A program made the translations under genes and the position numbers. The notes under the pieces are model-generated. The model was not told the origin of the DNA and searched no databases. It worked only from the letters and a program-made list of their open reading frames with translations. A DNA stretch of 64,000 nt from assembly GCA_008632985.1 (NCBI GenBank), contig QPGO01000121.1, forward strand, positions 62,001-126,000. Reading direction: 5' to 3'. Shown in pieces: positions 1,777 through 38,905 of the stretch (positions within the stretch are counted from its first letter, which is position 1; every line of letters starts with the position of its first letter). This stretch comes from Psammoneis japonica (Eukaryota).

Positions 1777-4700
1777 CACACTCCTGCTGCTCCTCGCATT
1801 GATGATCTGACATTCCCTGGCTTCATGATTGCACTGAGGCTTGGCATTGCCCTCTGGCATGCTCATTGCAAATTTGTCAGGTGCGTCAATGCTGTTGTCT
1901 GACAGCTCACACAAAGCGAACATCTGAATTGAGCTGCAATCTTCAAAGTCAAGGGGAGGAGCATGTGTCAAATTTCTTGTTTGCAATCCACCCCACTTGA
2001 TCATCAAAGCTCTTCACATGAGTGCAACAATCATTCTCTCACACTTCCTTGCTGTGCAGACCCACCCAGGTGACAAAATTTCACTTCATTGCAAGCCCAC
2101 TTCTGTCTGGGTTTTGCTTCAACAACTTCATGTTGGAAAAACCATGTCAACCTCAAAGTGTCCAGACAAGAACTGCGCTGTCATCTGTTGTCAAACCAAA
2201 CCAACAATGCATCAAATGGTCATGTCAGTTTGGTGCACATTCCACAAGGGGTCCACATGTTCTGTTCAGGGTCATGCCATGTGGGTGGGACAACTTGCTG
2301 ATGACCATTCCCACAGAAGGTCAATGTCTTCTTTGTCAAGGGCAAGCCGGAGCCTGTTCCCTTTTGACCTCACTGTCATTTCTTCACTGTGCTTGTCAGG
2401 ACAATCCGGGTCAGCGCCCTTTCCACAACATCTGCATCCTTGGATCCAGGTGTGTCCTCCAAGAATCTGCCAATGCTCCTTGGTCTTGTGTGCCACTCAT
2501 GCATGCTCCAGCATCTGGCACAAAACTTCACTTCCTTCACCAAACACAGAGATCATTGGTGAGGCAGCAAACATGTGTTGACATGCTGACAAACTTCACT
2601 TGTCCATCCCTTCTTTTGGTGTCATGTGCAACACCCATCACATTGAACCTCTCTGTCAACAGCTTGTGACATTTTTCTTCAAGTTCTTTCTTGCACTCAT
2701 CTTGCATGCCATCACAAAATTCCAGATGATCTTTCCATCCTTCTCAAATTCCAATGTCAACAATCTCATGTCAACCACCTTGCATGTGCAGGACAAATGG
2801 GTCCATTGGTGTTGACACATCTCCACTCTTTGCAAATCTGCCACATTCTTCCAGCACCTTCTGGGAATCTTGATCTTGGAATTGTTTCTTCTTCTCTTCT
2901 GACAATTCACTCAACTTCTTGAACTTGTCCCAATTGTGTCTTGATCACTGTTTTGCAAGAATGCATCATGTGGCTCCATGCCTTTGTTGATGTGTCCTGG
3001 TTCCTCATTGACAACACCGGTGTGCACAGTTGTCAACATCATGGTTGCTCTGAAGTTGAGCTGTGATTGGTTGAACTGCACGGTTCACCACATCCATGTG
3101 CATCAGAGTTCTTGTCTGACAACACAAACAACATTGATTTGTGCACCCTTGTGCTTGCCTTCTCTTCAGCAGCAGTCCATGATGGCTTGCTTGAACTTGC
3201 TGAACTTGTTCCTGCCCTGCAATGGCTCAGTCATGAAGTTTCCCAACATGTTGTCTGTTGAACAGCACACTGCAATCTAAGGTTGCCCTTCTCAATCTGG
3301 TCTGTTGCAAAAAAGTTGGATGTCGAGTGCTCCAGACCATTTTCCCATGCTCTTGTGCCCATTTGTCTCTGGCAGAACATTGCTCTGATTGTCCTGACAC
3401 AGGACATTCCAGTCAATCAGGTGTTCTTGGTGTCCCACAAACAACTTGGTCCACAGCATCATGGTTGTCACATTGTTGACTCCAACTGGTTTGGCCTCTC
3501 AGCACTGCTTTGGGTGCTCAGCTTCTGGCACTTGGAAATGGCTTGTGCCACACCATCACCCACAGTCATTGCACCTCCAGCGTGGCTTTTGAAATCTGGG
3601 TGCACTGCAAACAATGCACCCGTGCACCACTTGATGACTTGGAGGCATTTTGCACTTCTTTGGTGCAGTGACTTTGGTGCTTGATGAACAGGGCTGGCTT
3701 CTCCCAATCCTTGTTGGCAGGTTCTCTGACTCATGTGCACAGCTGTCCAGGTGTGGATTGTCTGTGCCTTGTCAGTTGGCAACCCACCCACATCACATGG
3801 TGGGTTCTCTCCTGCTGGTGTCATTGCAGCATCTTGGTGTTCTTGAACTTTTCCAGGAACTGGCTGACCATCTTGTGTGTGCAGTTGGTCACATTGATCT
3901 TCACCTTGCCCTTTTTGGTGAAGTCCAGAGTCATCCCCAGGGAGTCACACCTCTTGCCTTGAGCAGCAACAACATCACCACAGCTCCCATGCATCTTGGT
4001 GAGCCAACTCAGGAACATGTCATTAACCTTGGAGACCAATGGGTGTCATCCATGTGAAATCAGATGGTGTGCTGCTTGCCGTTGACTGCGCAGTTGGCAG
4101 TGCACTGATTGCATGAATTGAGCTTAACCCAACTTCTTCAAGTCTTTGCAAAATGATTGGTTGCACCACAGCAGGGATGCAACAAGCATGTTGCATGTTG
4201 CCCTGACAACAACTTGGATTCAGAGGACTCTCTCCCCCCTCTCCATGACCACAGGTTGTCTGCACAGGTTGGGATCAATGCTCACTGGCATGTTGACCAA
4301 CACTCCTGCAATCTTCATCACAATTTGGTCTTGTCACTGCTTGGGCTCTGGCATCTGTGTCTGGATGAACAAGTTTGGCATGTCCACACTCACAATGTCA
4401 TGCCCTTCCATGGCATCAATGATGGTCATCATTGTGATCCCTTCTGGCAATGCCATCAGACTGGCTAACTCATCCATGTCTGGCTGTTTTCTTGTTGGTT
4501 TCCCATTGCAGATGACTCATCCTTTCACACAACCATGTCTTGTTTCTCTGTGAGGAACATTGAGGCTGTCATGGGCCTCTTCCTCTCTGCTGGAGAAATG
4601 TCTTTGTCTCACACTGGTGCACAGCACCCTCTGTCATGGAGCCATCCAATCTCCTTTTCCAACATGTTTTGCCCTTGTTGGCCAAATGCTTTGAGGCCCT

Positions 4701-4986
4701 TGTGCAGCAATTGTTGCAGGGAGGCCAAATGAGGTGCCCTTTCCTGACCAGCCTCAGCCATTGATCTTGCACATGAATTGTGCCATTAACACTCCTGCTT
4801 CTGTGTTGCATTCTGTGCCCTTCTCCAGGTCACTGCTCACACTGGTTTGCAAATGATGGCAGCGCTCAAGTTCAGGCTGTGTCTGTTTCTCTTTTTTGGC
4901 ATCTGCCACTCCTGCAAATTGCACTTTTTGTTCTTCTCTCCATGGTCATTGTGGCATGATGGGATCCACTGCTTCCAGTCTGTTCA

Positions 4987-5094
4987 GGCTCATGTTGGTC
5001 TCTCTGTGGTTTGTTTCCATCCTGTGACATGTTGTGTCATGGCTCATGTTGGTCTCTCTGTGGTTTGTTTCCATCCTGTGACATGTTGTGTCAT
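4987..5094. repeat. Perfect 54-bp tandem duplication inside Copia-1
   Basis: ggctcatgttggtctctctgtggtttgtttccatcctgtgacatgttgtgtcat occurs at 4987-5040 and 5041-5094. Confidence 0.9.
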
Positions 5095-8000
5095 CACGTT
5101 CTTCTTGATCACCGTGTTTGTCTTCTTGACCATCACCATCATCATCATCCTCATGATGCTGGTCTGAACTGGAGACATTTCATCTGCAAGCATGTCTTGA
5201 GCTGTTTCACATTCATCATCAGAGTCTTCTGTTTCTTCCTGTTCTTCATGGTTTTTGTCATCAGTTGTTGCCTTTCTGGTTCAGTTTCCATTTTCTTCAT
5301 CAGCTTCATCATCTTTGTCATCACTTTTGGTGTTGCTTTCTTCTTTGTGGTCCAATCCTGCAGTCCAATCTGCATCGCACAGGTTGTCTCACATTCATCC
5401 ACAAATGCTCAACCACACGCACATGTGTGTCAGTCAGGGAGATTGGGGCACACTCGAAGGGGTTGAGTGACTTGCTCATGTGCAAGTTCACAGTGTGGTG
5501 TCTGCCCTTTGGAATGTCACAGCATGGTTTGAGGCAGACACTGTTAACGCCACATGCATCCCCAGTGTTTGATGGGTTGGGCTTGGTGTGGGGCAGGACA
5601 AATTCTCCAAAACAGCATCCAAGCTGTTTGTCACAGGTGAGGCTCTTTTGTTGCACAGTGGTGTGTGGACTTTGCATGTCTGAGATTCTTTCTTTCTGTG
5701 GGTGCATGTTCAACATGACAGTGTTCTCAATCACGGCATGCTTGCACATCAAAATGGGTGTCATCTTGCATGGCAGGTGGTGCACAGTTGCCCGAGTTTG
5801 CTCTTTGACAGTCTGAATGCTCCTCTCAATTTTGGGAACATGATTGCTGGCTTTTGCAGATGTCAACTCTGGGTCCATGCCATCAGCCACCGCTGCCAGC
5901 ATGTTCTTGAACTCTGGGTCACAATGAAGTCAATCTTGAATGCAGCCACATTGTGCTGTTGCAAGATCATGTCCTGTGCATTGCATGCATTGGCGTGGTT
6001 CTTTTGGACTTTGGTTTCATGCTTGATTGGTGCTTGATTGTTTTGTCCACTGCATGTGGCAGTTTGACTCCACACACTTCCATGATGTCAATGCAGAGTG
6101 TCATGCCTTCCCTCTGCTTCTCTTGTGCATTTCACAGGCGGCAATGCTGTGATGTCGTTCCTCTCATGGGAATGGTGCACACACTTGGCTTTGCCTTTTA
6201 CAGTGCATCTGTTGGTGGGTCCCATGTGCCCACCATTCTTTTCACATCCTCAGGTGCAATGGTCAGATCCTTCACCTGGTTTGATTGTAGAAATGGTGTG
6301 AAGTCATTCACACTTGGGGTTCCAGCTTTGTGGCACAATCTGAGTGCTTGCTCAGCATCAGCCACCTCTCTCTTAGAGCAGCCCTTGGCACTCTGTTCTG
6401 CCACGGGAACTGCCACTCTTGATGTGCCATTGTGCTTCTTCTTGGTCTTGCTCTTCTCATCCTTTGACAACATGCTCACATCCTTCTTGCACTCTGGCAG
6501 ATCTTCAGTGCAGTCAAAGAATCTCAAACTTGGGGCAAACATGTGCAGTCCAATGTTGTTGACCTTGATCACCACAACCTTCTCCCCAGTTTTCTCATCC
6601 AGCAGTCAGAACACATCCACCACTTGGTTGTCACAAGTCACATGGCACTTGTTCTTCATGTCCTTTAAATGTTTGATGTTTGCCACAGCATTGTCTCCCC
6701 ATCCTGGCTTTGTGCAGTCCTTGTCTGGGGCACCCAAAATTGCTCCACATTGCTGGTTGATTGGTCAATCTTGATCCTTGTCAGATGCACATTGTGCACC
6801 AGTTTCCAGCTTGCTGCCATGCCAAGGGAGGAGCCATTGTTGAGGAGAATCTCCTTGGAATCAATGTTTGTGTTCACTTGGTTCATGCTCACCTCTGATC
6901 TCTTGGTGACCAGCTGCAACCCATGCCATGCAGCACCTCTGCTTTTGCTAGAATGGGTTGATCCATTGGAGCTTGTGGTGCTGTCCACCAACAAATCATC
7001 ATCATTTCCACCTTGTGTTTGCATGTGGCTTTGTCAAGCAACACCCAGTTTCTTGCTGGCATTCTTGTGCCAAATGTCACAGGTGGTGACATCCCCTCTG
7101 TGTGATCACAATCTGGGAACTTGTGACCCTTCATTTGCCATGACAGTGACACATCATTTTGTCACTCTGGTTGCTCTGTTGAGCATGACTCTGGTGCTTC
7201 TGCCTCTCTGTTCCAGTGTGTTCCCATTGTTGTCATTGTTCCTGTTGTTTTGGCTGTGGTCATTCCTTGCAGCAATGCTCTGTCATTTGCGTGGATCATT
7301 GTCTTTTAGATGACCAAGCATTGCATTCATTGCCTCATCTGAGGTCTTCAGTTGGGCACCCTCCTTGCCTGGACTGCAGTCTCTCATGAAGCTCTTCTTC
7401 AGGCTCTTGCACTGGAAATGTGCAATCATTGCTGATCTCCATGGACAGATGTGCATCATCCCTCTGTCTTGCATGCAGACTCTTGCATCTCTTTCTGCTT
7501 TGCAGTGTTGACATCCTTGAACTCCTTCCTGTTGGAGATGAGCACACTCAGCATCTTGTCTCCCCCAGCCCTTCTTTGGCGTTGCATCTTGTTGGTTCTT
7601 GAACCTTGACAGGCAGTCATTCAGTGGCTCATTGTCTTGCTGTCTCACAGCTGGGATGTTCTTCAGGGCCCTTGCAAGGGCATTGAATGGGTGCCAACCT
7701 CTGGTTCTCTGTGTTTGACACTGCTTTCACCTGACAGAACAATCTTGGATCCTTCAAATGCTGGCATCTTGCTTGTGAAGTCCTCACACTTCATGTCTTT
7801 GTGGATCTTGCCAGATGTGCACCTTGGCTGCATTCCTTCTCTGCATCTGTCAAACAATCTTTTTTTTTTGACTTTCTTGAGTGTTGCATTTCAGGAAATG
7901 CTGCTCAGTGACAAAGAACAGAATTTTGTCTTGGACTGAAAGTGGTGTTTCTTGGTGTTGGTCTTTGTCTTTTCATTTGTTGACCTGTGACTTCCATCAC

Positions 8001-8162
8001 CTCTGCTGCAAACATGTCCTTGGGCCTGACAGCTTGTCTTGCCAACTCCCCTGCCACTCATTGTGCATGCATTCTGACAACTTGGCATTGGCAGTTGGCA
8101 GTGGTCTTGAAGCAAGTGAGGGCCAAACAAGCACTCCTGACTCTTTGGAGTAAATGTAGAAC

Positions 8163-8503
8163 TAACAAGTCAATGTTGCCAAAAGGGAATCCTGCAAGAA
8201 GGTCTGCTGCTCCACTCGCTGCACTTGTCTTGGCAGTCTGTGGTGGCTGTGGTTTGCCTTGGTGTGTCAATGTAAAATGAGTGACTGCCAAAACAACAGG
8301 TGCCTCTTGATGCCAACAGATGATCATGCAAACCAAATGTGGCTCACTCTGAAAAGTGAGAATGAAACACATGCATGGAGAATGTGGTGCCAACATTGGA
8401 GAAGATTGCTCCAGCCAACCATGTCAGGATCAACATCCTTCTCATTCAACACATTTGGGTCACATGACATGACATCTGGGTCTCACATTTTGGCACTCCA
8501 ACA
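8163..8503 (-). repeat. 5' LTR of Copia-1 (inner boundary may extend to about 8083)
   Basis: Homologous to 1439-1776. Ends ...ccaaca at 8503, followed by CCTGCC. Confidence 0.8.
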
Positions 8504-10490
8504 CCTGCCCCCCAGACAGCAAGAGCTGCTGCAAGGTGCTGGGGGTTGGCGCACCTCCTTGGCATTGTTGCTCCCCCAATGCCAACAGTTTGATGACCAA
8601 GGACACTTTTTGCAGCATTTCAGAGGGCAAAAACAATGGGTGCACACAAGCAACTTCCGGCTCTTCTCATCTGCCAGGCAGAAAGAGAGGGGAGCCAAGC
8701 ACCGCTTTTTGCTCCAAAGAGGAGGCAGTGTGCAAAGCAGCCGGGGGCTCCAAAGTGATTGACAGTGAAGGGGACAATGTGGATGCCAGCATCATGGAGG
8801 GCAGATGCAAGGGTTGCTTCATGTTGAGTTTTGTGTGTTCTGCAGAACTTCCGTTTGGTGCTTGTGTGGTGTGCCTTGGTGTGAGGGTTGAGGATGAGGG
8901 CAGGCAAGCCAGGAGCAGGCAATGGAGGAGGTTTGGGAATGATGATGGCAATCGCAAGGCAGCAGTGGCCAAGAGAGGGGAGGCAGCAGAAGCAGCTGGA
9001 TTGAGCTGGGGACACCTGCATCAGCGAGGCATTTGTTGAGGGGCAAGTGGGGCATGAGGTTGGTGGATTCATGATGGATGGCAGAAGAGTTGGTGCAAAT
9101 GCCAGAGAGGGGGGCAAGGGTGCATCTGAAATGCAGCAAAGAGGGCATCTTGGATGGCATCAGATGTGGTGGTCTTGTGTCCAAGGGATCAGCAACAGAA
9201 AGCATGGTCACCGCAGGGGTCAGCGGCGCCATTGCAGGAGGGGCAGCAGATGGATTCAAGGTGATCTGGGGAAATGGGCAGCCTTGGCTTGCATTGTGGC
9301 ACAAGGCAGAAATGGTCTGAGGCCAGGTGGTGTTGAAGAAAGTGAGCAAGCGAGGGATTGGAGGGAAAAGCTTGCAAGTGGAGAGAGGAGGGATGGGAGT
9401 GCAAGGAGGGCAAGGTGCAGAGGGCCTTGTTGTTGGAGCATCTGCAGTTGGTGGTGAAAGTGGGCATGGTGTGGGGCATGGAAGAGGTTGCAGAGCAGGT
9501 GTGATTTGACAAGGGCGGCAAGGGAGGGCTGAGTGGGGTCAAGCAGTGATGTGGTCGTGGTGGTGCCACAGTGTGTTTGAAGACTTGGCAAAGGCACAAA
9601 GGGCGGTGAGAGGTGGTCCATGTGCAAAGGGAGCGGGCACAAAAGGGAGAGAGTTTGAGGGAGTTGTTGTTGCCAGTGGTGGGCCGTGTGTGGTGCAGCA
9701 CAGGGAACGGGTGTGAGTTGGGGATGAGGAAGTGGATGGCAGCAGAGGTGGAGATGGAGCGGCGCCCGATGCCACCATCGGCACGCGGGGAGGTGGGCAC
9801 ACAAGAAGCAGGGTGTGGGGTGGCAAGCATTGTGATTGTGCTGTCAGGTGTTGCAGGAAGGCATTGCAGTGGCGTTGGACCTCTTGTTGGAAAGGCGAGG
9901 TCCAGGAAGTGAGGGGTGGTGGGGTGTCTGGGTCGAAACTGAAGTGGACGTCTGATGCCAGGAGGTGCGGAAGTGAGGAGATGGCACAAGTGCGGTGCAG
10001 GAAGCTTTTTGTTTGGGAGTCATGCAGGCAGAGGAAGAGAGTCAGTCAAGGTTGGTGCAAAATGTGGATGCTTTCTGGTCGAGGCAAGTGCTGGCAAAGT
10101 CAATGTGCTGCTGCCGATGGGTTGGCCAAGAAGGAAGCGGAGACCGGCGGTGATTTCAGGGCAAAGGGAGTGGGGTTGTTGGTGGGGTTGAGGAAAATAA
10201 GGGCTTCTTGAAGGGTGGTGGCATTTGCTGGAGGCAGCAGCACTTGCTGGAGGCAGGTTGGGCGAGGGGCTGGTGCCGAATGAAGAGGTGAGTGTGCGAG
10301 TCTTGGAGTGGTTGAGGTGCACTCAGTGTGTTCAGCCCAGTTCCTCGAGACATTGCAAGGACAACCATGGCAGTTCCGTGTGTGGCAACCAAATGCTGGT
10401 GTCGTCGATGAGGAAGGCAGTGGACGTGACGTTAGAAGATGGGAGTCATTGGTGTAGTTCGGCATTGAGCTGTTCGAGAACATTGTTTCT
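8504..10490 (-). mobile_element. Degenerate, 5'-truncated non-LTR retrotransposon with restriction-like endonuclease (CRE-like)
   Basis: Minus-strand fragments in the expected order: YTND (YxDD-like, about 10450), LNHSKT, GLRFLLGQPIGS, DGGIGRRS, zinc knuckle CPSCNGAADPCGDHAFCC (about 9190-9250), and REL motif HIVPFTVNHFGAPG (about 8760). Confidence 0.7.
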
Positions 10491-14221: not shown

Positions 14222-14501
14222 TGCGCGCAAACAGGAAGTGATCAGTCCCGCCTGCCAGAAACATTCGGGACTCACCGAGGTTGCGTCCGTCATGCTTCAC
14301 CGCGACAAAAAATTCCGAACGATTGACGATGGTGCGCCGATGTCGATAACTTTTGCTAACAAGCATGTTCTCTGCACCTGTTGGGTATTTAGTCTTTATC
14401 TATATACAAACAGTCTACTTTATGCATTAGGTGCGGCCAATTCGACGAAATGGCGCCAAAATGACCAACTGTCCACAGGCTTCTGCTGGCTGGGCCCTGC
14501 C

Positions 14502-14734
14502 TGTTGAGATTCACCCTTCCAGCGGCAGTCCAAGGGCCACTTCAGTCCTCCAAGGCTGATCCTGGGCAAAATAGACAAGCTCGTTGTCACAATGCTTTCT
14601 AAGAGTTAAAAGAGAACAGTGACTGCTTCATTGGCAGTTCTTGTGCTTCGCGCAGAGCACATCAGTGCTGGCACACACGTCTTCTTCACGCTGTCCAATT
14701 TCGTCTTTGTGCTTTTGGTGCACACTTTCCAACA
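14502..14734 (-). repeat. 3' LTR of Copia-2
   Basis: Close match to 19600-19831. Preceded on the minus strand by cagcaggagtg. Confidence 0.9.
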
Positions 14735-17700
14735 CACTCCTGCTGACCAATGAAAAGATTTGTTTGCATTTCCAAGTTTACCCATCTTGGGCACTTGGAG
14801 ATGTTCTTGACAGTTTGACAACCAACAATGAACTTCTCACCAAGCAACCACAGGCTTGGCCATGCAATCTCCAATCATCTTGTCTGTTGGGCAGAACTCA
14901 ATCTCAAGTTCTCTGCACTTGATGAGGTCAGTGATGTAAAAACACTTGATGTTGAAGTGTCTTGTGCATTTGCCTGAACTGGCCTTTCCATTTTCTTCTA
15001 ATTTTGCGCAACTCTGGTTGCCACGATCATGCATGATGTTGTGTTTGACTGGAAACCTTGGGCTTCAACAAACAGCTTGGTCCAAAGGACCTTTGACACA
15101 ACATCACCTCCTGCAACAATTTCTGCTTTGGCAGAACTTCTGGTGTTGATCTTCTGCTTTGTGCTGACAGATGTGATGACACCCTTTCCAAGAGTCATCA
15201 TTGCTCCAGTGTGGAGTCTGAGTGAGCTGCAAAGGTGGCATCAACATGCCATTCAATGTTGACTTCATCTCCAGCAGACATTCATGCTGGGTTTTCTTGA
15301 GGAAATTCATGACCCTCACCAGCTTCATCCAATCTGATTTGTTTGATTCTTTGACTCTGGTGGAGAGAAAAGAAATGCGAGGCCGGATGTCCTGTCTGTG
15401 GCTCTCTTGCAAAGAAACATGCCCTTCATCACAAAAGTGCAAAATGTTTCAGCACGCTTGGGATCCAACTTCTTGGCCTTCTTGTCCACCTTTTTTTGCT
15501 TCTTGTTCCATGGGCAATCTACATTGCCAGACAATTCTTCCGGGAAGTCCCTGACCATGCCTTGAATGCAGAGCACCATGTCCACTTGCAGCATTCCTGG
15601 AATGTTGTAATCCAGAATCATGGCCAAGCAATTGTGCCTCTTTCCACACGTCACTTTGACCTCTCCAATCTTGTCTGCACAAGTTTTGTCAAGCCAAATC
15701 TTAAACTTGTTGTTGACTTTGCTGTCAATGTGGCTCAACTTCAAATCATCAACATGCCATGTCACCATGTGCTGCTTTCCATTCATGATGCAGTTGGCCA
15801 CACATGGATCATGTGGATTGACCTTGAAGCCAACTCCTTTGATGTCTTGAGGACAGAACTTCTTGCAACAAAGAATGGAAGACACCAACATTCCACAGAG
15901 TGCCTTCAACATTTCCATGTGCAGGACCTTGTGCTTGCCTTTGTGCACAATGCAGTCCTGACAAGTTTGGGATCTAATTCAAGCAGCATGTCTGCCATCC
16001 TTCCACAAATCTTCGTGATGATCTTCTCATCCTTGACCTCAATGTCTGTCTGCCCAAATGCATGCAGAATGTCTGCTGTCATGACATCTCGGCCTTGCTT
16101 GGCATTGGTTGCTCCTGTGATGAGAATGGACTCAGTGGATGCTGTGGGAACACTGGCTGTTTTGTCACGGTCCATGTGCTCTCATTGCGTGCTTCCATTT
16201 GCACACAATCTGGACTTGATTCGTCCATCTCTTTTCTCTGTGAGAAACATGAGGCTCTCCATGGCCCTCTTCCTCTCCAGAGGAGTCATGTCATTGATGT
16301 GAATGGGCTTGAAAACTGCTCTGTCATGGATCTGCTGCAGCTCTGATGTGGCCGACTTGGGGCCTTCTTCTCCAAACTTCTGGAGTCCTCGTGCCAAGCT
16401 GCAAGTCTGAATGAATTGATGTGCTTCCTCAACAGTGGTGACAGCACTGATCTTTTCATTCCATTGGCACACTGTCATGGCCACAATCCTGGCTGTTTCC
16501 AAGCTGTGCTCTTTGACTTGCGAGTGAGCCTGAGTCTGTAAATTGTGGCGCTGGCAATCGCCAAATCTTGCTGGAGGTTTGAGAGTCCTTCCGGTCCTCA
16601 ACTTGGCAACAGGCTCTTCTTCAACACTCTCTTCAGTTTCACTCTGTTCATCTCCAGACTCGTCTTTGGATTCTGGCTCTTGCATTGTGGCAATGAGCTC
16701 TTGCACTTCTGGAGAGAATTCCTGCTCTTGATTCTGCAGCTCATCAATGTGTTCAATCATGTCATTGATTTCTTGGGAGATTCCACTTCCTTCTGATGAT
16801 TGGGAACCTTCTTTGTCATTCACTCTGAGATGCTCTTCTTGTTGGGATTCTTCATCTTGTGCTTCATCTTGCTCCTCGCTGATGTGGCTGGCTTCTTCAC
16901 CCAGCTCTTGATCTCAGATCATTTCTTGCAGCTCTTCTTGGCTGACTCTTTTGCAGTCTCCCCCCCAGCCCAGCTTGTCTCCTTGTCGTCTTCCTTGTCC
17001 CTTGCTTCAATGTCTTCTTTGAGATTGCAGTCTTTGTCTTTGAGTTGATCTTCATCACAATCCACTCCTGCAAGCCAAGCACTGTCACCAAAACAATTCC
17101 AGTGCGGTTCTCAATCTTGAGACCATTTTGGGCATCTTGTTCATTTCAGCCAAACGATGAACCTGTTTGATGATGGCGGGAGTGATGGGTGGCACAGGGG
17201 TGACCTTGCAATGGGTGATCTTCTTGCCAGTGTGCAAGTGCAGCAACTCATGTCCAATCTGGTTGCTGTTGGTGGGGCACAAACAAATGCAATCCAAGGT
17301 CCATGACTCTTGGGTGTTGTTGGGATCCGGGTCATTTTGAGCTTGCACACAAGTGCCAAACATGATTTTGCAGCTCTTGTTGTAGTCTAGATTCTTTTGA
17401 TGGAGAATCATCCTTGGGCTGCAATGCTTTGAAACACCATGCTTGGCTGGAAAATGACTGAGCTTCTTGGCAGCCTCGGTGACCATGACTTCCACCATGA
17501 GGTTTGGAAGATGCTTGAATGGCAGTTGATGACAGACTGTCCTGGCACATTCTTGAATGACTCTGTTGTTCCACTTGGCTTCTGGGACATGTTCCTGAGC
17601 ATGAGCACAGCTCATCTTGAGATTGAACTTGTCTTCAAGTGCACCCCAATGGGCCTGAACTCATTGTGGCAATGAATGCACGTGACCTTTAAATCAGCCT

Positions 17701-19599
17701 TGTTGCAGTCTTGCAGCATGCCTTCCAGAGCTTTCTGATGGGTGGCTTGGGTCAAATCCTTCAACGGCTGCACAGTGCGACAAAAAATGTTCCGTGACAC
17801 TGTGGTGAGGAACAGCAATCCATTCACCTTGAGTCCATCCAGGCAAAGAGCGACTTTGTGCTGAGCTGCAATGAGCTCCTTCGGAATCTCAATGCAGTCT
17901 TTGACAACTGGCTCTGGCTTTCACCTGGTGACCTTGCCTTTCAGGCTTCCAATGTCTGGTCCAAAGATCTTCTTGGCCAAATCCACGTCCTTGGTTGCAA
18001 CGGGATTGCTCTTGATGCTGTTTGTGTGAATGATGGCCTTCAGATTGTTTGCGGTTGGGTTTCCCAGCAGGTGCAACAATTCTTGAGCTCTCTTGGCTTG
18101 CTCAAATTGGTGTGAAGTGCAGAACTTCTTGTTTTCCTCAACGCTCTGCATGAGTTGGAGCTCAGCTCCAGTGTCTTGGATTGTGGGCTTGCAGACATGC
18201 AGCCCGCTTGTGCCCTCCTTGAACTTGACCTGCTTGTGGGGCAAATGAACGGTGAATGCATTGTCTTGGAAGGAATCACAAGTGATCCTGTGCTTCTTCT
18301 TCATGCCAGAGCAAGCAAAAATGTTGGTGCTGATCACACCTTGCATCTGGGTTGAACCAGGCCTCACTGAGTCCAGGCACAGCAGCCTTGTGAGAGTCGT
18401 GATTGGCGCTCCTCCATTGGTGTGCAATCTCATGATTTCATCAGAAGACAGACGAATGTTTGCAACCAGCTTCTCATTTCAGAAGATGGTGGTTGTGGAC
18501 TGATTGTCCAATGAAGTCCAGTCTTTCATGTTGTCAGACTGTCCTTGCAAGAGAGACACATCAATGTGCATGCCAGCCCATTCAGAACTGGCAGACTTGG
18601 TTCCAGTGGTTGCAGCACTGGCATCATCAGCTGCCTGAATGTTGCTTGCTTCTTCTTTGGCCTTGGCCTTGTTGATGGCCCATTCTGATTGATCTCTTGA
18701 GCCTCTCTCTCTCTGCAATTTGTGGACTTGCATCCTGCCTTTCCACAACAGTGGCACACCTGCCTTCCATCTGAGCAAAAGACAGGGCGATTTCTTGGTT
18801 TTCTTCTTGTTTCTTGGAATCGAAGTTGTTGTTTTGATTGTTCCTGTTCCTGTTGTTGTCAGACTGTTTGACGCAATCAAAGGTGTGGTTGCTCAATGCT
18901 GTGTTGGCTTCCGCAACAGACTTGGGATGCTGGTTGTTCTTGAGTGACTGCCAAGTGTTCAATCCTGTGAGAATTGATCCACACTTGCATTGATCTGCAT
19001 TCTCCAAGTGCATGAAACCCATCAGCTGGCTGAATGCCTTCTCTTGGCATTTTTTTGCAGCGTCTGAATTGGACTTGTCACAATCCAACATGCCCTCTGA
19101 CTTTGGTGAGGATGATTGGTCCCCCGATGTGAGACTTTATGACGTCTCTTGCAACCCTGAATTGCTTGGTGCAATCTTGCAGACTCTCCTTTTTCTTTTG
19201 TTTGAATTCCAGCACAGCCCCATGGAATCTGAGATGATGGCCATGTTGCATCTCTGTGCTCTTGACAACTCAATGCATGCTCCTTGATGGCCTTGAGCAG
19301 TTCAGTGGGACTGTTCTCAATCTTGGTTTGAAATTCATTGCAATCTGAAAATCAGATGCTTGCTTGGCATTTCCAACGCAGCAGACGCAGTCTTCAACAT
19401 GCTCTTGTGGCTCTGCTTGCCCACACGCTTGTTTCCTCTTCTACAGGATCCTTTTCCATGGCTCCTGTTGCCACCTCTGCCTCTGCCTCTTCCACTCATG
19501 TTGGATTGGCAAAGCAGGAAAATGTCTCCCACTTGGCGAGAATGACTCTTTTCTTCTCTCTTGTTTTTGTGCCTCTCAGCTGGTTTGCTCTCTTTCAAC

Positions 19600-19831
19600 T
19601 GTTGAGATTCGCCCTTCCAGTGGCAGTCTAAGGGCCACTTCAGTCCTCCAAGGCTGTTCCTGAGGGCAAAATAGACAAGCTTGTTATCACAATGCTTTCT
19701 AAGAGTTAAAAGAGAACAATGACTGCTTCATTGGCAGTTCTCGTGCTTCACGTGGAGCACATCAGCGCTGGCGCACACGTCTTCTTCACGCTGTCTAATT
19801 TCGTCTTTTGTGCTTTGTGCACAATACAGCA
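19600..19831 (-). repeat. 5' LTR of Copia-2
   Basis: Close match to 14502-14734 except for the terminal 10 or so nt. Confidence 0.9.
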
Positions 19832-30751: not shown

Positions 30752-33700
30752 TTCAAATTAAAAAATGGGATCATCCATCGTGGATGTTGATCCTGTACCG
30801 GTAATAGGGTTAGGGTTTATAAATGGGCAAGTAGATAGGGCGGCAGTAGCGGGAGTTCGTGAAGTACAGCACCATGACCCGTCAGATCTTTTTTTTTGAG
30901 TTTTGTTGGTGTACTTCTGCTCCTGGACCGCAACGCAACGCCTTTTGTTGTAAGTGACAGGGATCCCACATGACCTGCGAAGACCGCTCGCCGTCGCACC
31001 CAACGTGCTCTTCATCGCTCCATTGCTTCGGTCAAATGCACTCCGGCTCCTGCTCCACCTGCACCCGACAAGCTCCGTCTCTCTCGTGTCAAAGCCAACG
31101 TCCGTGCCGCTCTCAGCAAACGTCTCGCTCAGGCCCAGGCCCGCATTGATCGTCTCCAACTGAGACTGACAAGATCTGCTCCAACTTTCACGTCATCAAG
31201 CACTCTCGTGCTCGACTCGACAAGTCATTGGAATGAGCCACTGACGACAAATCCGAGTTTTTCGACCCCGAGCACAATCTCTGTGACCGCGCGATCCGTG
31301 ACCAATTGACAGCAGTCGACAACTCTTTTGACACTTTGGATGTCGATTTGGACACTTTGCACAACCGCCTTCGGAAACCTTCCGCACGTGACAACCCCGT
31401 GCCCTCTGCTCACTTTTCTGGGCCGCGCCCCCGCAAACATCGAACCAAATCCCGCTCGAGGCAATCACTCCGGATGACTCCCAACCAGGAACACCATGCA
31501 CTGCGATCCTGCCGTCACCGCCACGGCATGTCCCGATCCGAACCCTTTCACCATCCAGAAGCCGACTCCTGCTTTCGGCCTGAAACAAGGAAGTGTCAAG
31601 ACAGTGGCCCACAGCAGTCTCCACACCCCTCGTCGGATCACTTCATCTGTGCCACAGTTGACACCGTGCAATCCGACGATGAGGATGATGCTCCAATTCA
31701 AGGGGGGTCTCAACCCACTGCTGACGACCCGCCACCCCATGTCACTGCACCACTGGGGTCCCCAGAGGAATTCCCCCCGCTTTCATCTCCAACGGATCAT
31801 GCCACCCCTGCACTCTCCCATGTCGACCCATCCTCTTCAACCTCTGCGACTCACCTTTTTGATGTCGTCACTCCTGTGTTGAACAAAATGGATGAAGCAC
31901 TCGACGAGGCCCTTGCCTCCCCCACTCGTGCACCTGCTGTTGACTCGCCCGCTCCAGCTTCGTCCGACACCTCTGATGCACCTGATCCATCCGTGGACAA
32001 TGACATCAACGTCCAAGTTTGTCTCGTCACCTTCGAGGCTCTCTTCGACACCCAACAAGCTCTCGCACTGTTTTTCCATCGTGAGAATGAACGTGCCGTT
32101 GAGCTTCGCGACACTGTCGATTCGGCTAAAATGTCTTTCGAGCGCTTCCTTCATCGCTGCCCTGCTTGTGAAGCAAGCACTCTTGCACTTCGTTGTTTTC
32201 AGGACATGATGCATGCCGCCGAGTCTCTTTACCTGGAACTTGTGTTCCATCTTGCTCTCACACCGCGACGACATCCCGCTTCCCCGTCCGACCATCACTC
32301 ATCAGCCGACGACACCGTCTTCTCTCATGGTGCACCCGAGCACTCCTCGGAATCCCTTTCGAATTCATTGACAAAGCACGCGTCCTACACAAATTTGTGC
32401 ACTCTGAAACACCATCAGAATCCGCACACGCGACGACAAAAGTTTTGTGCATTTTTGAATGACTTGCGTGGGACCTTCGCATCTTTTCCGGAATTCAATG
32501 GCCCACTCAATGATTTTCCTTCTGTCCCTCTTCGCCCACTTCCAGACCATGCTGACAGTGCTCTCCATGCTCTCCTCTGGACGCATGTGGACGCGACGCA
32601 CCAATCTGACATTTCCGACCTTGAATCTCGATCTGGCAAACTTGCTCTCGAAGAACTCCAGCTGCGCTGTGCGCCCATCACTCAGGAACACAGCAACTGC
32701 TGTTCCAACGACTGTCTGCAAGTCTTCCTCAACTCCAACGAGTCCGCCAGCAGCTTCATCCAATGCTTTGAGCGAAAACTCTGGAGCCACAAGAATGCCG
32801 GCCTTCCAGTCAAGACTGACGCGGATGTCAGCACCCATTTTCTCAGCCAAATGGGCAGCCATCCCCGCTGCGATGCATCCATCAAGCAACTCGAATCCGA
32901 ATTTCGCACTGCCGCTCGTCTCTCCACTGCCACAGCTCCCCGGTTCAAGGACATCCGGCAAATGTTCTGTGACATCGACGAGCAGCATCACAACCAACAG
33001 CATCGTGATCGACTCTCGCATGGCTCTCGCTCCCGCTCTCACAACAACCATGCTCACCTTGCTGCCGTCAAACGCACTCCTCGGACTGCACAACGACAGC
33101 AACAGCAGCAACGTCGCCCAACCCAACCTCACGCCACCGAGATCTGTGACTGCTGTGGAAAGCGCAACCACAACGCTGCTGAATGTCGCTCTCGGCTCCG
33201 CGATCTGAAGAAGGGCACACCCAAGGATCAACCTGCCACCAAACCTCCTTGCAACTTGAGCGAAGTCACGTGTTTTCACTGCAAAAAAAGGGGCACCTTC
33301 GTCCCGACTGTCCCGAACTTGCAAAGGACGCAAAACAAACCGCTCTCGCCGCCACTGCACCTGCCATGCACTGCCGAGCAAAGGCACCTCCACAGAACGA
33401 CCAAATCATTTTCTGTGCTGCTTGAGCTGATGTGGAGGATGCTCACTCTTTTTCCTCCTCCTCAGACTCTGTCCCACCTCTGGAACCACGCCACGTCTCC
33501 TTTGACGACGAATCATCGGCCGGCTGCTCCAAGAGTGACTCCATCGCATCTTCCTCGACTCATGGAACAATGCCCACCATCACTCTCCAGGAACTCCTCA
33601 CTGACACTGCTTCAATTGATGGCAACGAAACTTTCTCCGCCACCTCAACCTCCACTGGTCCTCCGCCTCTGGCACATCATGACTGCGACTCCAGCACGGA

Positions 33701-36108
33701 TTCATCATCCACCATGCTGCCTTTGCTCTGTCGCTCATGCAAACCTGATGGCAACAAATCTTCATCCGCCTGCTCGACCTCCACTGGTCCACCTCCTCTT
33801 GCCCATCATGACTGCGACTCCAGCACGGATTCATCATCCACAATGCCGTCTTTGATCTGTCATCCATGTGCACCGGACGACAACACAGCCTGTCCTTTTG
33901 ATGAACCGCCTCCCGAGCACTCTCCTGCAGCATCCCCTGTCTGTTTCGATTTCCATGATGCTTTCACCACGGCATCTCATGCATCCAGGCACACCACAAT
34001 CTCTGACGATGACGACAAATCCGTAATCTCTGATCTCAGCTGTGACTCCATGGATGCGGTCGACACCGTCCCCTGTTTCTCATGCGACACCGCTGATTGT
34101 CACGTTCAAGTTGCATGCATGGCCGACGATCCCGACCAGTGCTGACCTCACCAACTGCCCCGCGACTCTGACCTCACGGACATCAGCAGTTGGTCTGTCG
34201 ACTCTGGTGCTTCTTCTCATTTCGTTCGTCATGACTCACTTGATGACAGCACCCCCTGTCACGTCCCTGTTGTCATTGCAGACGGCGCCACAGTCCATGC
34301 CACGAAAGTTGGGTCCATCACCCTCCGCTTCCAAGACGACCAAGGACATCCGGTCAACCTTGTCCTTGATCATGTTTGTCACATCCCAGGCCTCAACCGG
34401 AACTCATTCTTGGCACCCTCCTTCACGGCCAATGAACTCTTCAATGTCTGCATCACCACCAACATCACGACACTCGATTTTGGCGACGGGCACACTTTCA
34501 GTTTCCCGATGCTCCATCACAAGCGCTCCTGTCACCCACTTCTGACCCTCCCTCCGCAGAAGCAACCGATGCCCATGGCACCTCGAAACCAACAACCCAT
34601 GCAATCGACCTTGATCTTGCAGGCCGCCGTTTCGGTTGTCGCTCCTCTCAGAGTCTTTTGGCGGGCACAGTTGGCGAAGTTTGGCGCGACTGCCATGTTG
34701 CCCCCGGGACTGACGACTGTCTGGACAACGCGCACATCGCCATCTCCCAAAAGCGCAACCGCGTTAAATGTGACCCAACTGAACCGACACACACATTTTC
34801 ACGTGTGTTCATGGATGCAATTCCCAACCCTCACACAGTCGCACTCACCCCAAAAACGTCTTTTCCCTGCCATCTCTTTTTGGCAACCCACAAAGGACAC
34901 CACTGCGGTGTTCGTGGTCTCGAGAGTCCATCATCTGGCAATGTCATCGCCGCCTTTAAATCATGGATGACCGAAGTGCAATCCCAGGGACAAGTCCAAG
35001 ACACAAACTTCATCCGCGCCGACTCAGCGCAATGTTTTCTGTCCTCCGAATTTCTTGCCTTTGGTGAAGACAATGGAATCAAGGTCGAGGTCGCCGCTCC
35101 ACAACACCAGGAACAGAACGGGTTGCGGAACGCATGTGGCAAGTCACAAGCAATGTGATTCGATGCCCACTTGTCAACGCAAGACTCTCGGCACACTTCT
35201 GCCACCAAGCATTCATTCACGCCGTCGCCATCCTGAACGTCCTCCCGGCTAAAGGCACACGGCTCCCTGATGGCTCACTGGCTACACCGTACTTCCATGC
35301 ATTCAACAGACTCCCCAAGATTGGCAATTTTTGTGTTTTTGGATGTCCCGTCACTTTCGACCGACACCAACCTCTCAACCTGGACACTCGTCGCCCGACC
35401 ACCACCCAACAACAGATTCAACGTCGATCTCGTGGCATTCATGTCGGTTTTGCACCAAACCAAGCTGGACACCTCATCTGTGTTCCCGAGGGCATCGGCA
35501 CCAAGAATCTGATTGTTGTGTGCAACGCTGTTTTTGACAAACTTTTTGAATCATCACTCGTGTACAACCACGTCCCCTTCTCTGGCGCACTCCCGATCCG
35601 GAACATCTCAAACGATGCCTCTGGTCTCAAGTCACACAACGAGACTCCATTGGATGAACACACGGGAACCATTCAAGATTTCTTTGATGTTGACTCACCC
35701 CCTTGTTCTCCCACTCTTGCTGAAGTGCCTCCGGAATCCAACAACTCTGATTCGGATGAACCACCTCCAGCACCTGCTGCGACCGGACTCGGACGATCCA
35801 CTCGCACCAACGCTGGCCTCCACAATTCTGTGCGCTTCGCAGACAAGGAGCAACTCTACGCTGTGACCTCCTCCACTCCCCCAGTCGATCTTCTCGAGCA
35901 AACTCTCTTCGACGACTCACTCGCCATGGAATCTGCATGCAGTGCCTCGCTCGAATCCCCTTGGCCTGACTGCAACTGGCATCAATGCCCGGACCCCTTG
36001 CAACAAGCTTTGGAAGCCGTCCGTGCCACCACTTCAACCCCCATTGATGACTGCTCACCGGTTCCTCGCTCTTTTCGAGCCATCCTCAGACAACCTCCTG
36101 CAATTCGC

Positions 36109-36555
36109 TGCAGCATGCATGCAGACAAAAGGTTGTTTTTGTCACGCCCTTTGTGACATTTAAAGGCTGTGACACGTCGCCGTGATGCATTGGCTCTTGC
36201 CAGCAGCTGCACATTGCACTCCTCCCCATGCATCACGCGTCCATGCGGCTCTTTACCAACGTGCACTGACACTGCACGGTTTTGGCGGAACAGTGTGGGT
36301 ACGTGCAAAGGAACACACAGAACTGCACAGAGTTTTATGCGTTCGACAGTGATCAACGTTGCTGCAGACAACTCCCACTCAGGGTTTCGAACCCCTGGCC
36401 TCCTGCCCAATGGTTGCGATGAACCACTCCACTGTGAATTCACAATGCAGCATGCATGCAGACAAAAGGTCATTTTTGTCACGCCCTTTGTGACATTTAA
36501 AGGCTGCAACACGTCGCCGTGATGCATTGACTCTTGTTGGCAGCTGTGCATTGCA
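36109..36555 (-). mobile_element. TRIM-like miniature LTR element nested in the Copia-3 pol region
   Basis: 110-bp direct repeats at 36109-36218 and 36446-36555 with TG...CA ends. 4-bp TSD TCGC. Minus-strand PPT ggggaggag. Removing the element restores the host frame PPAIRDAWLRAIRSEL. Confidence 0.9.
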
Positions 36556-38258
36556 TCGCGACGCCTGGCTTCGTGCCATCCGATCTGAGCTCAAGAACCT
36601 CATCGTGGACAATGAAACCTTCGCTCTTCATGAATGTCCCCATCCAGACGATGAGATCATCAGCACCACACTTGCTCTCCATGCCAAAGAGAAATCTGAC
36701 GGCTTTCTGGAGAAACTCAAGGCTCGACACTGTGCGCGCGTCGACGTGCAACGCAAATCAGCCGATGACGACAATTGGTCACCAAATGCATCCTCTCGTG
36801 CCATCAAGCTCTTCCTGGCTTTTGCAGCAAAGGCCAAACGGCACGTCAAGAATGGTGATTTTGTCGGTGCTCACCTTCAAGCCCCTGCTCGAGGCCGTCT
36901 CTTTGTTCGCTTCGACCCGATTCTGAAGCAACATTTCCCCGAGTGCACCGAACATTTTGGTGCACCCCTCCGCCTCAAGAAAGGCATGCACGGGACCATC
37001 CGCAGCGGTCTTTGGTGGTCCACCGAGCTCTCCGAATTCTCACTTGCCCAAGGACACACCAATTCCAAGGCAGATCCCACCTTCTTTGCCAAGCACTTCC
37101 CCGACGGCTCACATCTCAAGCTCATTTTCTACACGGATGACATCATCCACTTTGGGTCTCACGACAGAGTCGAGAAGGATTTTGAGAACCTCACACGATC
37201 CAGGTGCAACATCACATTCAACGGTGACGTCACCTGGTTCTTGCAGATGCGCATTCACTGATGCGCCGATGGCTCCTTCTCTCTCGACCAACATCGACAT
37301 GTGCGCAATCTCCTCAAGCGGTTCCTCACTCCCAACTCACCTTGGGGCAGCCCCAGCTTTCAGGGTGCTCCAGCTCCCGTTGATTGTGTGCACTCCAAGG
37401 CGAATCAACCCAAGGACGCTGCCAAATCCAAGCAAATCGCGAACAAGTGTCCTGGTCTCCATTTTCGCTCCGCTGTCTGCTCCATCCTTTGTCTCGCTTG
37501 CAACACTCGCGCTGACATTCTCTGGATCACATGCAAACTTGCAAAGGCTTGCACCAACCCTGGCATGAAGGATTTTGATGCTCTTGTCCACCTTTTTGGC
37601 TTCCTCCGCAAACATCAAGACCTCGCCATCAAATTTTATTCTGATCCCACCGCGAGCCCTGTTCACGCGATTTGCGAAGCTCACAATGTCAGTCATTCTG
37701 AATTTGCAGTCTTCGCCGATGCCAGCTGGCAGGATTGTCCGGACACCGCCAAGTCAACCATTGGATTTATGGTCCACTTCAATGGGGCAACAGTGGAAGC
37801 CAATTCCACTGTCCCAACCCCTGTTGCAATGTCCACTGCCGAATCCGAGTGGATGGGTGCCTGCACTGGCGCTGTGGCTGTTGCTCACCTGCACATGTTG
37901 GCCTGCGACTTCACCTTCCTTGGCACCCGCCATCACTCCATTGACTCCCAACGCCCATCCACTGCTCCTACAATCCTCATGTTGGACAACCAAGCCGCAG
38001 TCCAAATGGCCCAAAACGACCAACAGACTCGACGGACCTGACATGTCGAGCGACGTTTCCAACATGTCCGCGAAGGGCAGCGCCTCGGTCATCACTTACT
38101 TGTTTGGATCCCCGCGGAAAGTCAATTAGCGGACTGCCTCACCAAAACTCAATGTGCAGACAAAATTTGGGTCATGGTCGACCGTGTCCTATGGCGCCTA
38201 CCTGCACACATGTTGTCATGAGCTCCTTATCACCTTCCCTCATTCGGTTCAAGGGGGG

Positions 38259-38568
38259 TGACAGGGATCCCACATGACCCTTTTATATTGGAACCTCATG
38301 ATCGAAGATAGTATATATCTTCAGTCGGGTTTATGACTGAAATTTACTGATCTTTCGGAGTGTTTCAGCAACCTGTCGGAATCTATCCGATCTAACAACT
38401 ATATCGATTCTGAGACTAGCTCAGAATCTCTCACAACTTCTAGACAACGCATTATCGCAAGGTACTGCTTCTAGATCAGGCTCTAGCTTACTCTCTCCTG
38501 TTTGTGCACGGACTTGATCACCCAGGTCACACTCAGGCGAGTACCCAGCTCTCTCTTCATCCCTATCA
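38259..38568 (+). repeat. 3' LTR of Copia-3
   Basis: Starts TGACAGGG right after the PPT and ends CTATCA before the TSD. First 21 nt identical to 30955-30975. Confidence 0.85.
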
Positions 38569-38905
38569 GTAAGTTGGTAGAAGTACGAGAGGGATAGTCC
38601 AATTAGCACGGGTTTTTGGAATCGATACAAAAAAAAATTATCAGACTTTGAGTTGCAGGATATGCCATACTACTGAAAGTAAAGCACTACGAAAGTTTCT
38701 CTTTCCCTCTAGAATTTAGTATCGAAGCTAAAAACTGCTAGCGCAACTACTCTCTCCCTCCCTCTCTCTGCCGTATCTCACTTCGAAGCGTACTGTAGGT
38801 CTTAATTATCGCTTTCTACTACCTCTCTAGCTCACCATCATCAAATAATGTTTATAAAAAATGCAAAATCTATCTTTGTCGCGGTCAGCGACTGCTTTCG
38901 GCGCT

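What the first reader, a model, noticed from the sequence alone, without database searches (positions are those of the whole stretch)
30975..38100. Copia-3 has lost TpA but kept CpG, so the A->G process is uncoupled from CpG decay
Seen: Copia-1 and Copia-2 lack both TA and CG. Copia-3 is still CG-rich (gacaccgtgcaatccgacgat, cgcgcgtcgacgtg) yet has very few TA. Inference: TpA mutation is faster than, and not a by-product of, methyl-CpG deamination. The three elements may show successive stages, with TA lost first and CG later.
Basis: partly seen in the sequence, partly recalled or inferred. Interest (0 to 1): 0.8.

Follow-up and report, generated by a model that had tools for sequence, protein, structure and literature searches.

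The report
Diatom transposon: TA erased, CG kept
A dead jumping gene in a diatom has had about nine in ten of its TA steps rewritten to TG or CA after it landed while most CG steps survive, which shows a fast TA-specific mutation process, so far in print only for one unrelated alga, running ahead of ordinary CG decay in the same silenced DNA.

Summary
Confirmed. Window 30975-38100 holds 21 TA (o/e 0.06; host flanks 0.56-0.63) and 433 CG (0.82). It is the body of a Copia element (30955-38568, 5-bp target duplication) in a diatom. Against sister copies it keeps 16 of 128 former TA sites but 334 of 473 CG sites; conserved tyrosines became His or Cys. TA went to TG or CA equally, without strand runs, after insertion (LTR pairs), in piggyBac copies too, and short-read-type contigs carry the same letters. 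TA loss runs 3-26 times faster than CpG decay, never passes through CG, and does not depend on distance to CpG: not a by-product. 'Uncoupled' is only half right: CpG decay is already 14-fold raised here, and both processes share the same domains. Stage order (TA first) holds, but CpG rate also varies by locus. Closest known: TpA hypermutation of integrated viruses in Bigelowiella (2026 preprint). Enzyme unknown; DNA adenine deamination is likeliest. This scan noted the same pattern many times on other DNA of this genome.

The parts
30950..30954 (+). Target-site duplication, left copy (5 bp)
   Evidence: Same 5 letters follow the 3' LTR at 38569-38573
30955..30975 (+). Stub of the 5' LTR (21 nt); about 820 bp of LTR and leader are deleted relative to sister copies
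   Evidence: Identical to the start of the 3' LTR; sister copies align from 30980 at their position about 844
30976..38258 (+). TA-erased body of the Copia element (the finding)
   Evidence: TA o/e 0.04 (30976-36108) and 0.10 (36556-38258), CG 0.84 and 0.77; 87-93% identical to L031-L036
31237..33855 (+). Long gag-like frame, 872 aa stop to stop
   Evidence: no Pfam family over cut-off; gag assigned from position only (inference)
33617..33874 (+). 129-bp tandem duplication inside the element, shared with sister copies
   Evidence: ordinary, transversion-rich differences
34146..36108 (+). Protease and integrase region, broken by frameshifts
   Evidence: Pol_BBD E 7e-10, SH3_retrovirus E 0.0025; tblastn of outside pol P0001 residues 2-423 at 34805-36108
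36109..36555 (+). Nested 447-bp miniature LTR element (110-bp terminal repeats, 4-bp target duplication), younger than its host element and already TA-erased
   Evidence: keeps 17% of TA sites and 86% of CG sites; read-word depth about 50,000
36557..38257 (+). Reverse transcriptase-RNase H region, broken by stops and frameshifts
   Evidence: RVT_2 E 1.2e-13; 51% identical to P0001 residues 423-985
38251..38258 (+). Polypurine tract
   Evidence: purine run directly before the 3' LTR, read from the sequence
38259..38568 (+). 3' LTR, 310 bp, TG...CA, spared: 21 TA, o/e 0.87; the spared zone starts near 38097
38569..38573 (+). Target-site duplication, right copy
   Evidence: one X1 contig joins 30949 to 38569, an empty site (only 24 letters on the short side)
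14501..19823 (-). Copia-2, comparison element: TA 0.04, CG 0.19
   Evidence: LTRs 14501-14724 and 19599-19823, 92% alike; RVT_2 E 0.003, under cut-off
1436..8504 (-). Copia-1, comparison element: TA 0.03, CG 0.08; oldest of the three
   Evidence: LTRs 74% alike; no Pfam hit in three frames, Copia class rests on a 75-bp match to Copia-2 and recalled motifs

Best explanation
A host process acts on chromosomal DNA of silenced mobile elements after they integrate and turns TpA into TpG on either strand (seen as TG or CA), one site at a time and repeatedly, until only resistant contexts (TTAA, CTAA, CTAG) are left. It is some hundred times faster than ordinary transitions and 3-26 times faster than methyl-CpG deamination, which runs in the same domains as a second, slower and more locus-dependent clock. 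Copia-3 is old enough to be saturated for the first and young enough to keep most CpG. Tyr codons become His or Cys, so the copy is killed without new stops. SHOWN: post-insertion, DNA-level, TpA-specific, strand-symmetric, not routed through CG, not triggered by homology alone. INFERRED: targeting by silent chromatin (5mC, histone marks or small RNA). LEAST SURE (about 0.45 on its own): the chemistry is adenine deamination to inosine by an ADAT2/TadA-type enzyme, fixed at replication because inosine is poorly excised.
For: LTR pairs, identical at insertion, differ only at TA sites in L031 (4 of 4) and L035 (10 of 10), 8 of 11 in L036. Independent insertions L035/L036 differ by 48 CA/TG double changes where 1.1 are expected from CG decay. 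51 of 110 TA-bearing sites show TA, TG and CA among 8 copies; only 7 are invariant. Other A>G contexts stay at 0.08-0.25%. 362 TG to 370 CA on the sense strand (P 0.80); runs test null in 6 of 7 copies (one P 0.03), neighbours 173 same to 189 opposite. Of 23 tyrosines invariant in three outside proteins this copy has 9 His, 6 Cys, 2 Tyr; 10 of 10 metagenome relatives keep TA o/e 0.55-0.77 and 115 Tyr to 10 His, 0 Cys (P 6e-12). PiggyBac-type copies, which have no RNA stage, show it too (L143-L145 TA 0.06-0.18, CG 0.69-0.82; 10 of 16 matches TA under 0.2). The most repeated part, the LTR, is spared here, and host duplicates keep TA (17 of 20 TA sites equal at 24107-24911). Residual TA contexts: ATAT 0.03, ATAC 0.12, TTAA 4.8 times the host share. 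Same signature measured in a mutation-accumulation experiment in Bigelowiella natans (10.64898/2026.01.13.699255). Genome has ADAT2-like and two A_deamin genes and no detectable MPG/AAG glycosylase where the control rang in 4 of 14.
Against: No enzyme is singled out: the deaminases found look like the ordinary housekeeping set, none with a chromatin domain in the frames scanned. An endonuclease V gene is present. A and T chemistry cannot be told apart from sequence. Methylation was not measured; CpG transitions are only its footprint. The run that confirms the letters may be the source of the assembly and its library type is not on record. TA and CG retention fall together across copies (TA 0.29 to 0.12, CG 0.91 to 0.55), as a shared cause would also give. 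Several piggyBac transposase cores keep TA (L139-L142, L148), unexplained unless they are expressed or domesticated.
Confidence: 0.75

Rival explanations
1. Same targeting, thymine chemistry: T of TpA is oxidised (5-hydroxymethyl- to 5-formyl-uracil) in silenced DNA and mispairs with G, giving T>C.
For: TpA is palindromic, so every result fits T>C as well as A>G. Modified thymine in dinoflagellate repeats with a TA/TC preference is recalled, from no call.
Against: No Tet_JBP match in G000, but the control was silent, so this is weak. T>C before C or T is only 0.21-0.53%, so a TC preference is absent.
Confidence: 0.2
2. By-product of methyl-CpG repair: T:G mismatches call in an error-prone polymerase (eta-like, A>G at WA) or adenine excision followed by Rev1, and neighbouring TpA sites are miscopied.
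For: Both decays share domains (438 of 445 tiles with CG under 0.5 have TA under 0.3); CpG transitions are raised 14- to 20-fold in this family; many C5 methyltransferase genes.
Against: AA>AG stays at 0.21% while most TA is lost, unlike the recalled WA motif. TA survival is 19-23% at every distance from CG (P 0.71). No strand-coordinated tracts. Two versions of one insertion differ 31 to 8 in CG loss but 23 to 19 in TA hits (P 0.02, weakened by saturation). Across 30 miniature elements TA and CG retention do not correlate (rho 0.17, P 0.38).
Confidence: 0.12
3. Editing at the RNA or reverse-transcription stage (ADAR-like A-to-I on the transcript or the RNA:DNA hybrid), so copies arrive already edited.
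For: U before the edited A is the ADAR preference (stated in the preprint); two A_deamin genes exist.
Against: The two LTRs of one copy differ at TA sites; both strands are hit equally; DNA transposon copies are hit; two versions of one insertion keep diverging at TA.
Confidence: 0.03
4. The family was simply TA-poor from the start (codon usage or avoidance), or the pattern is a long-read base-calling artefact at modified bases.
For: No copy of the family with a full internal TA content was found among the 13 fetched; TA is under-used in host genes as well (0.56-0.63).
Against: Tyr to His/Cys at invariant sites; copies disagree TG versus CA at the same sites; relatives elsewhere are normal; word-based contigs of run X1 carry the same letters at depth 31-45; TA/CG mixtures expected from column-wise miscalls are absent (1 site).
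Confidence: 0.03

Closest known systems
TpA hypermutation of integrated NCLDV and virophage DNA in Bigelowiella natans (Mettrop et al., bioRxiv 10.64898/2026.01.13.699255)
   Same: TpA>TpG and TpA>CpA only, both directions, confined to foreign DNA, TpA-poor/CpA+TpG-rich clusters, no need for a duplicate; A deamination by ADAT2 proposed there too.
   Different: That is a rhizarian; this is a diatom. There the measured targets are viral insertions with most TpA still present (Rho 0.45), transposons only suggested; here LTR, miniature and DNA transposons are erased to o/e under 0.1. The preprint's main text has no occurrence of diatom, LTR, CpG or stramenopile, so the order relative to CpG decay and the flanking-base rule are not given there (its supplements could not be seen).
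Repeat-induced point mutation (RIP) of Neurospora and other ascomycetes (features recalled)
   Same: Works like it: context-specific transitions that saturate repeats and kill them; diatoms even hold RID-related DNMT4 genes (PMC9998398, section read).
   Different: Opposite polarity (destroys TpA, RIP makes it from CpA); no strand-coordinated runs; the most repeated part (LTR) and host duplicates are spared, so homology alone is not the trigger.
Methyl-CpG deamination in DNMT5-methylated diatom transposons (PMC9998398, abstract read)
   Same: Accounts for the CG>TG/CA part: raised 14- to 20-fold, confined to elements.
   Different: Cannot make TG or CA from TA; much slower than the TA process and more variable between loci.
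ADAR/ADAT A-to-I editing and APOBEC editing of retroelement cDNA
   Same: Deaminase-type transition with a 5' neighbour preference.
   Different: Those act on RNA or single-stranded cDNA and leave one-strand clusters; this is symmetric, unclustered and continues after integration.

Membership tests
Ty1/Copia LTR retrotransposon | LTRs TG...CA, short target-site duplication, polypurine tract | tested here: met
   3' LTR 310 bp, 21-nt 5' stub, 5-bp duplication, purine run
Ty1/Copia LTR retrotransposon | Order protease-integrase-RT-RNase H with RVT_2 | tested here: met
   Pol_BBD, SH3-like, RVT_2 in that order; P0001 aligns colinearly
Bigelowiella-type TpA hypermutation | A:T>G:C changes restricted to TpA, in both directions | tested here: met
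Bigelowiella-type TpA hypermutation | Confined to foreign DNA, host genes spared | tested here: met
Bigelowiella-type TpA hypermutation | About 1000-fold rate per generation, active only in some lines | not testable with these tools
   Only a relative figure: most TA lost while other A>G is 0.08-0.25%, some hundred-fold
Bigelowiella-type TpA hypermutation | Same enzyme (unknown there; ADAT2 proposed) | tested here: inconclusive
   ADAT2-like gene present (L131) but such genes are universal
Fungal RIP | C>T polarity, mostly at CpA | tested here: not met
   [C>T]A 3 of 2416, T[G>A] 2 of 1582; CA/TG is enriched
Fungal RIP | Triggered by sequence homology, strand-coordinated clusters | tested here: not met
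   LTR and host duplicates spared; runs test null in 6 of 7
Fungal RIP | Needs RID/DNMT4 and the sexual cycle | not tested
   27 DNA_methylase matches were not assigned to subfamilies
Methyl-CpG deamination | Raised CG>TG/CA in elements | tested here: met
   46 of 1747 CpG positions in six sister copies, 23 of 263 in this copy; explains the CG part only
Methyl-CpG deamination | 5mC present on Copia-3 | not testable with these tools
   needs bisulfite, enzymatic or nanopore methylation data

The most novel reading that the evidence does not exclude
Diatoms and chlorarachniophytes share an old, unrecognised genome defence in which a natural adenine deaminase edits chromosomal DNA at TpA inside silenced foreign elements, working independently of cytosine methylation and ahead of it: an adenine counterpart of RIP that is guided by chromatin and not by homology.
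Probability: 0.3. Interest if true: 0.9.

Novelty: new variant of a known kind. Interest (0 to 1): 0.64.

Why it matters
It extends a mutation process reported once, in a preprint on a rhizarian's viral insertions, to a diatom's transposons and shows it taken to saturation. It gives the order and relative speed against CpG decay and a flanking-base rule that any candidate enzyme must match. Diatoms can be gene-edited, so the enzyme and the need for 5mC become directly testable. A natural DNA adenine editor would interest both genome-defence biology and base-editing work. In practice, transposon ages from LTR divergence in this genome are inflated unless TA and CG sites are masked, and erased elements show long false open frames because TAA and TAG vanish.

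Tried and rejected
Long-read artefact: rejected (X3 laid nothing and X2 only flanks and the miniature element, which proves nothing). Expression: no RNA holder listed. Strand-coordinated burst: not seen (L031 alone P 0.03 of 7 tests). Dependence on distance to CpG: none. CA>CG as a source of the kept CpG: rejected, C[A>G] 6 of 2373. LTR versus coding region as a same-age test of shared targeting: TA kept 0.60 versus 0.33, CG 0.963 versus 0.952, too few LTR CG sites (54) to decide. TET/JBP search blank with a silent control. ESM Atlas search of the Derlin piece gave no useful taxon; the diatom call rests on named hits of a host gene (Odontella, Triceratium-like, Epithemia, Nitzschia among the best named, 44-53% identity). 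Pfam gave nothing for 8505-10450. One search stopped at L063, so cores of L063-L083 were not printed; these loci entered the tile count. Paper searches found no report of TpA erasure in diatoms; two found only the Bigelowiella preprint as relevant; most subscription papers are not searched. A word search of earlier findings for an enzyme candidate was empty.
Full report
Observation. The stretch 30975-38100 has 21 TA (o/e 0.057) and 433 CG (0.82); three host stretches of the window have TA 0.56-0.63 and CG 0.96-1.00; the bodies of Copia-1 and Copia-2 have TA 0.03-0.04 and CG 0.08 and 0.19 (profile). AA and AT are normal, CA/TG is raised.

What it is. A host gene's best named relatives are diatoms, and G000 is a 91-Mb eukaryotic assembly. 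The element spans 30955-38568 between two copies of a 5-bp target duplication; the 5' LTR is cut to 21 nt with about 820 bp lost; protease, integrase, RT and RNase H follow in Copia order and are broken. A 447-bp miniature LTR element is nested at 36109-36555. The RT region has 31 matches in the genome; 13 were fetched in full and the 7 nearest (85-90% identical over the aligned columns) were aligned with this copy. L033 and L034 share target site and flanks and are two versions of one insertion. One contig of run X1 joins the two flanks, and element-specific contigs lie at depth 31-45 against 52-56 for flanks, which suggests that the insertion is on one homologue only; the joint has only 24 letters on its short side.

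The TA loss is real, directional and after insertion. Contigs of run X1 match five listed pieces inside the element with no other letter; the run may be the assembly's own source and its library is not on record, but word-based contigs at this depth do not carry long-read miscalls (inference). Of 23 tyrosines invariant in three outside pol proteins, this copy reads His 9, Cys 6, Phe 3, Tyr 2, other 3, while 17 of 29 arginines survive on CGN codons; old relatives L039 and L040 have lost the arginines as well. All 10 metagenome relatives found keep TA o/e 0.55-0.77 and show 115 Tyr, 10 His, 0 Cys at those positions. Among 8 copies, 110 sites carry TA in at least one copy; 7 are invariant and 51 show TA, TG and CA together. 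The two LTRs of one copy differ at 4 of 4 (L031), 10 of 10 (L035) and 8 of 11 (L036) places by TA-derived changes. Other A>G contexts change at 0.08-0.25%. Direction is even (362 TG, 370 CA) and unclustered in 6 of 7 copies. Ten of 16 piggyBac-type matches have TA under 0.2, three of them with CG 0.69-0.82, so no RNA stage is needed.

Speed against CpG decay. This copy keeps 16 of 128 scored former-TA sites and 334 of 473 scored CG sites. The TA figure is an upper bound on survival, since sites lost the same way in all copies are invisible; the CG figure includes turnover between subfamilies. The rate ratio is at least 6, or about 11 from private CpG changes; it is 14-23 in L034-L036, 26 over 30 miniature elements (136 of 894 TA against 607 of 653 CG kept; 30 fetched of 40 scored of 321 candidates), and 3.3 in six young Copia-2-family LTR pairs, whose TA sites may be rich in resistant contexts.

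By-product or not. TA and CG states meet at 1 of 742 sites. TA survival is 46 of 248, 50 of 236, 36 of 155 and 14 of 71 at rising distance from the nearest CG (P 0.71). L033 lost 31 CG against 8 in L034, with TA hits 23 against 19 (P 0.02, blunted by saturation), and TA and CG retention do not correlate over the miniature elements (rho 0.17, P 0.38). So the two chemistries are separate. But CpG decay is already running in Copia-3 (23 of 263 CpG positions against 10 of 1506 others), the genome has many C5 methyltransferase genes, transposon CG methylation by DNMT5 is established in another diatom (PMC9998398, abstract seen), and 438 of 445 tiles with CG under 0.5 also have TA under 0.3. A shared targeting signal is thus open, and 'uncoupled' is shown for chemistry and rate only.

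Stages. In 1096 tiles of 500 bp from the window and fetched loci (chosen around elements and partly overlapping, so not independent) the plot is L-shaped: 115 tiles lack TA and keep CG, none of 286 CG-poor tiles keeps TA. Among 10 Copia-2 relatives with an LTR pair (15 fetched of 50 matches) internal CG falls with LTR age (rho -0.73, P 0.016) and so does residual TA (rho -0.97). Against this, the window's own Copia-2 has only 2 non-TA, non-CG substitutions between its LTRs but 7 CG differences and CG 0.19; with it the trend weakens to P 0.06. The three elements reflect age and locus-specific CpG rate together. Copia-3 itself has no LTR pair and cannot be dated directly.

Targeting and sequence rule. 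The 3' LTR, the most repeated part, keeps all 21 TA, and TA reappears from 38097; on the 5' side there is no TA for 1.17 kb from the edge. Host duplicates in the window show ordinary spectra. Homology alone is not the trigger; a silenced domain is the simplest reading (inference). Residual TA in erased tiles is poor in ATAT (0.03 of host share), ATAC/GTAT (0.12) and ATAG/GTAC (0.4) and rich in TTAA (4.8), CTAA (3.0) and CTAG (1.9); site-level counts agree and favour the strand that reads TAC or TAT.

Mechanism. Best reading: repeated single hits on chromosomal DNA of silenced elements. Adenine deamination by an ADAT2/TadA-type enzyme is the likeliest chemistry (about 0.45): the 5' T and 3' pyrimidine preference fits such enzymes (recalled), an ADAT2-like gene and two A_deamin genes are present, and no MPG/AAG glycosylase was found while the control rang in 4 of 14 genomes. 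Against: these genes are universal, endonuclease V is present, an incomplete assembly can hide a gene, and the palindrome hides which base is hit. Thymine oxidation (0.2) and error-prone repair around 5mC (0.12) remain; labels such as polymerase eta's WA motif, Rev1 and dinoflagellate 5hmU are recalled, from no call.

Comparison with what is known. The bioRxiv preprint 10.64898/2026.01.13.699255 (parts 1-3 of 5 read: abstract, introduction, results, discussion, conclusion; term search; supplements closed and may hold context data) reports the same TpA>TpG/CpA spectrum in integrated viruses of Bigelowiella natans and suggests transposons as further targets. It does not mention diatoms, LTR elements or CpG in its main text. 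Searches found no diatom report. It works like RIP but fails RIP's polarity, homology and clustering tests. Earlier notes of this scan describe the same pattern on many other pieces of this genome; I found the preprint and reached this reading before looking, and the notes are not independent support.

Verdict. Real, not an artefact; a new variant (new lineage, transposon targets, saturation, ordered against CpG decay) of a process in print once. Interest 0.64.

Noticed in passing
window 36109-36555; L085-L113: Very high-copy 447-bp miniature LTR element (110-bp repeats, 4-bp target duplication, word depth about 50,000). All 30 copies fetched sit in TA-erased flanks, as if it inserts into or survives only in silenced DNA; its CG count correlates negatively with flank CG (rho -0.40, P 0.03).
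   Followed up: partly
L119, L120, L121, L125; L182-L185 (G000:C297, C301): A C5 DNA methyltransferase gene lies in several copies (87-96% alike) inside long TA-erased repeated blocks, with tyrosines almost gone; 31-37% identical to intact host DNMTs L115 and L116. Possibly a methyltransferase carried by a mobile element.
   Followed up: partly
window 8505-10100 and 760-1436: Blocks beside Copia-1 are TA-erased too (0 TA in 1596 bp, GC 0.56, CG 0.24) with no Pfam hit; one 276-bp match at 75% to L060. Unknown element or spread from Copia-1.
   Followed up: partly
L139-L142, L146, L148: Some piggyBac-type transposase frames keep TA (0.36-0.56) while DNA right beside L140-L142 and L146 is erased; expressed or domesticated parts may be spared.
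   Followed up: no
window 38097-38568: The 3' LTR and 160 bp before it are fully spared, while the 5' edge is erased up to the target site; LTRs of copies nested in other elements (L033, L034, L037) are erased.
   Followed up: partly
L033 versus L034: Two versions of one insertion differ fourfold in CpG loss (31 to 8), hinting at allele-specific methylation.
   Followed up: partly
window 37130: One of the few surviving TA steps is the Tyr codon of the RT YxDD motif; context or chance, not tested.
   Followed up: no
window 27917-28203 and 38583-38893: A 300-bp repeat (71% alike) between host stretches; the second copy starts 14 bp after the element's right end.
   Followed up: no
L122 (G000:C34): A chromodomain frame lies just upstream of a DNA_methylase match, as in chromodomain-bearing diatom DNMT4 described in PMC9998398; not confirmed as one gene.
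   Followed up: no
window 63185-64000, 47974-48183, 24107-24911: Host tandem repeats (84-bp LRR units, 42-bp units, a 400-bp duplication) with ordinary substitution spectra where tested; useful negative controls.
   Followed up: partly
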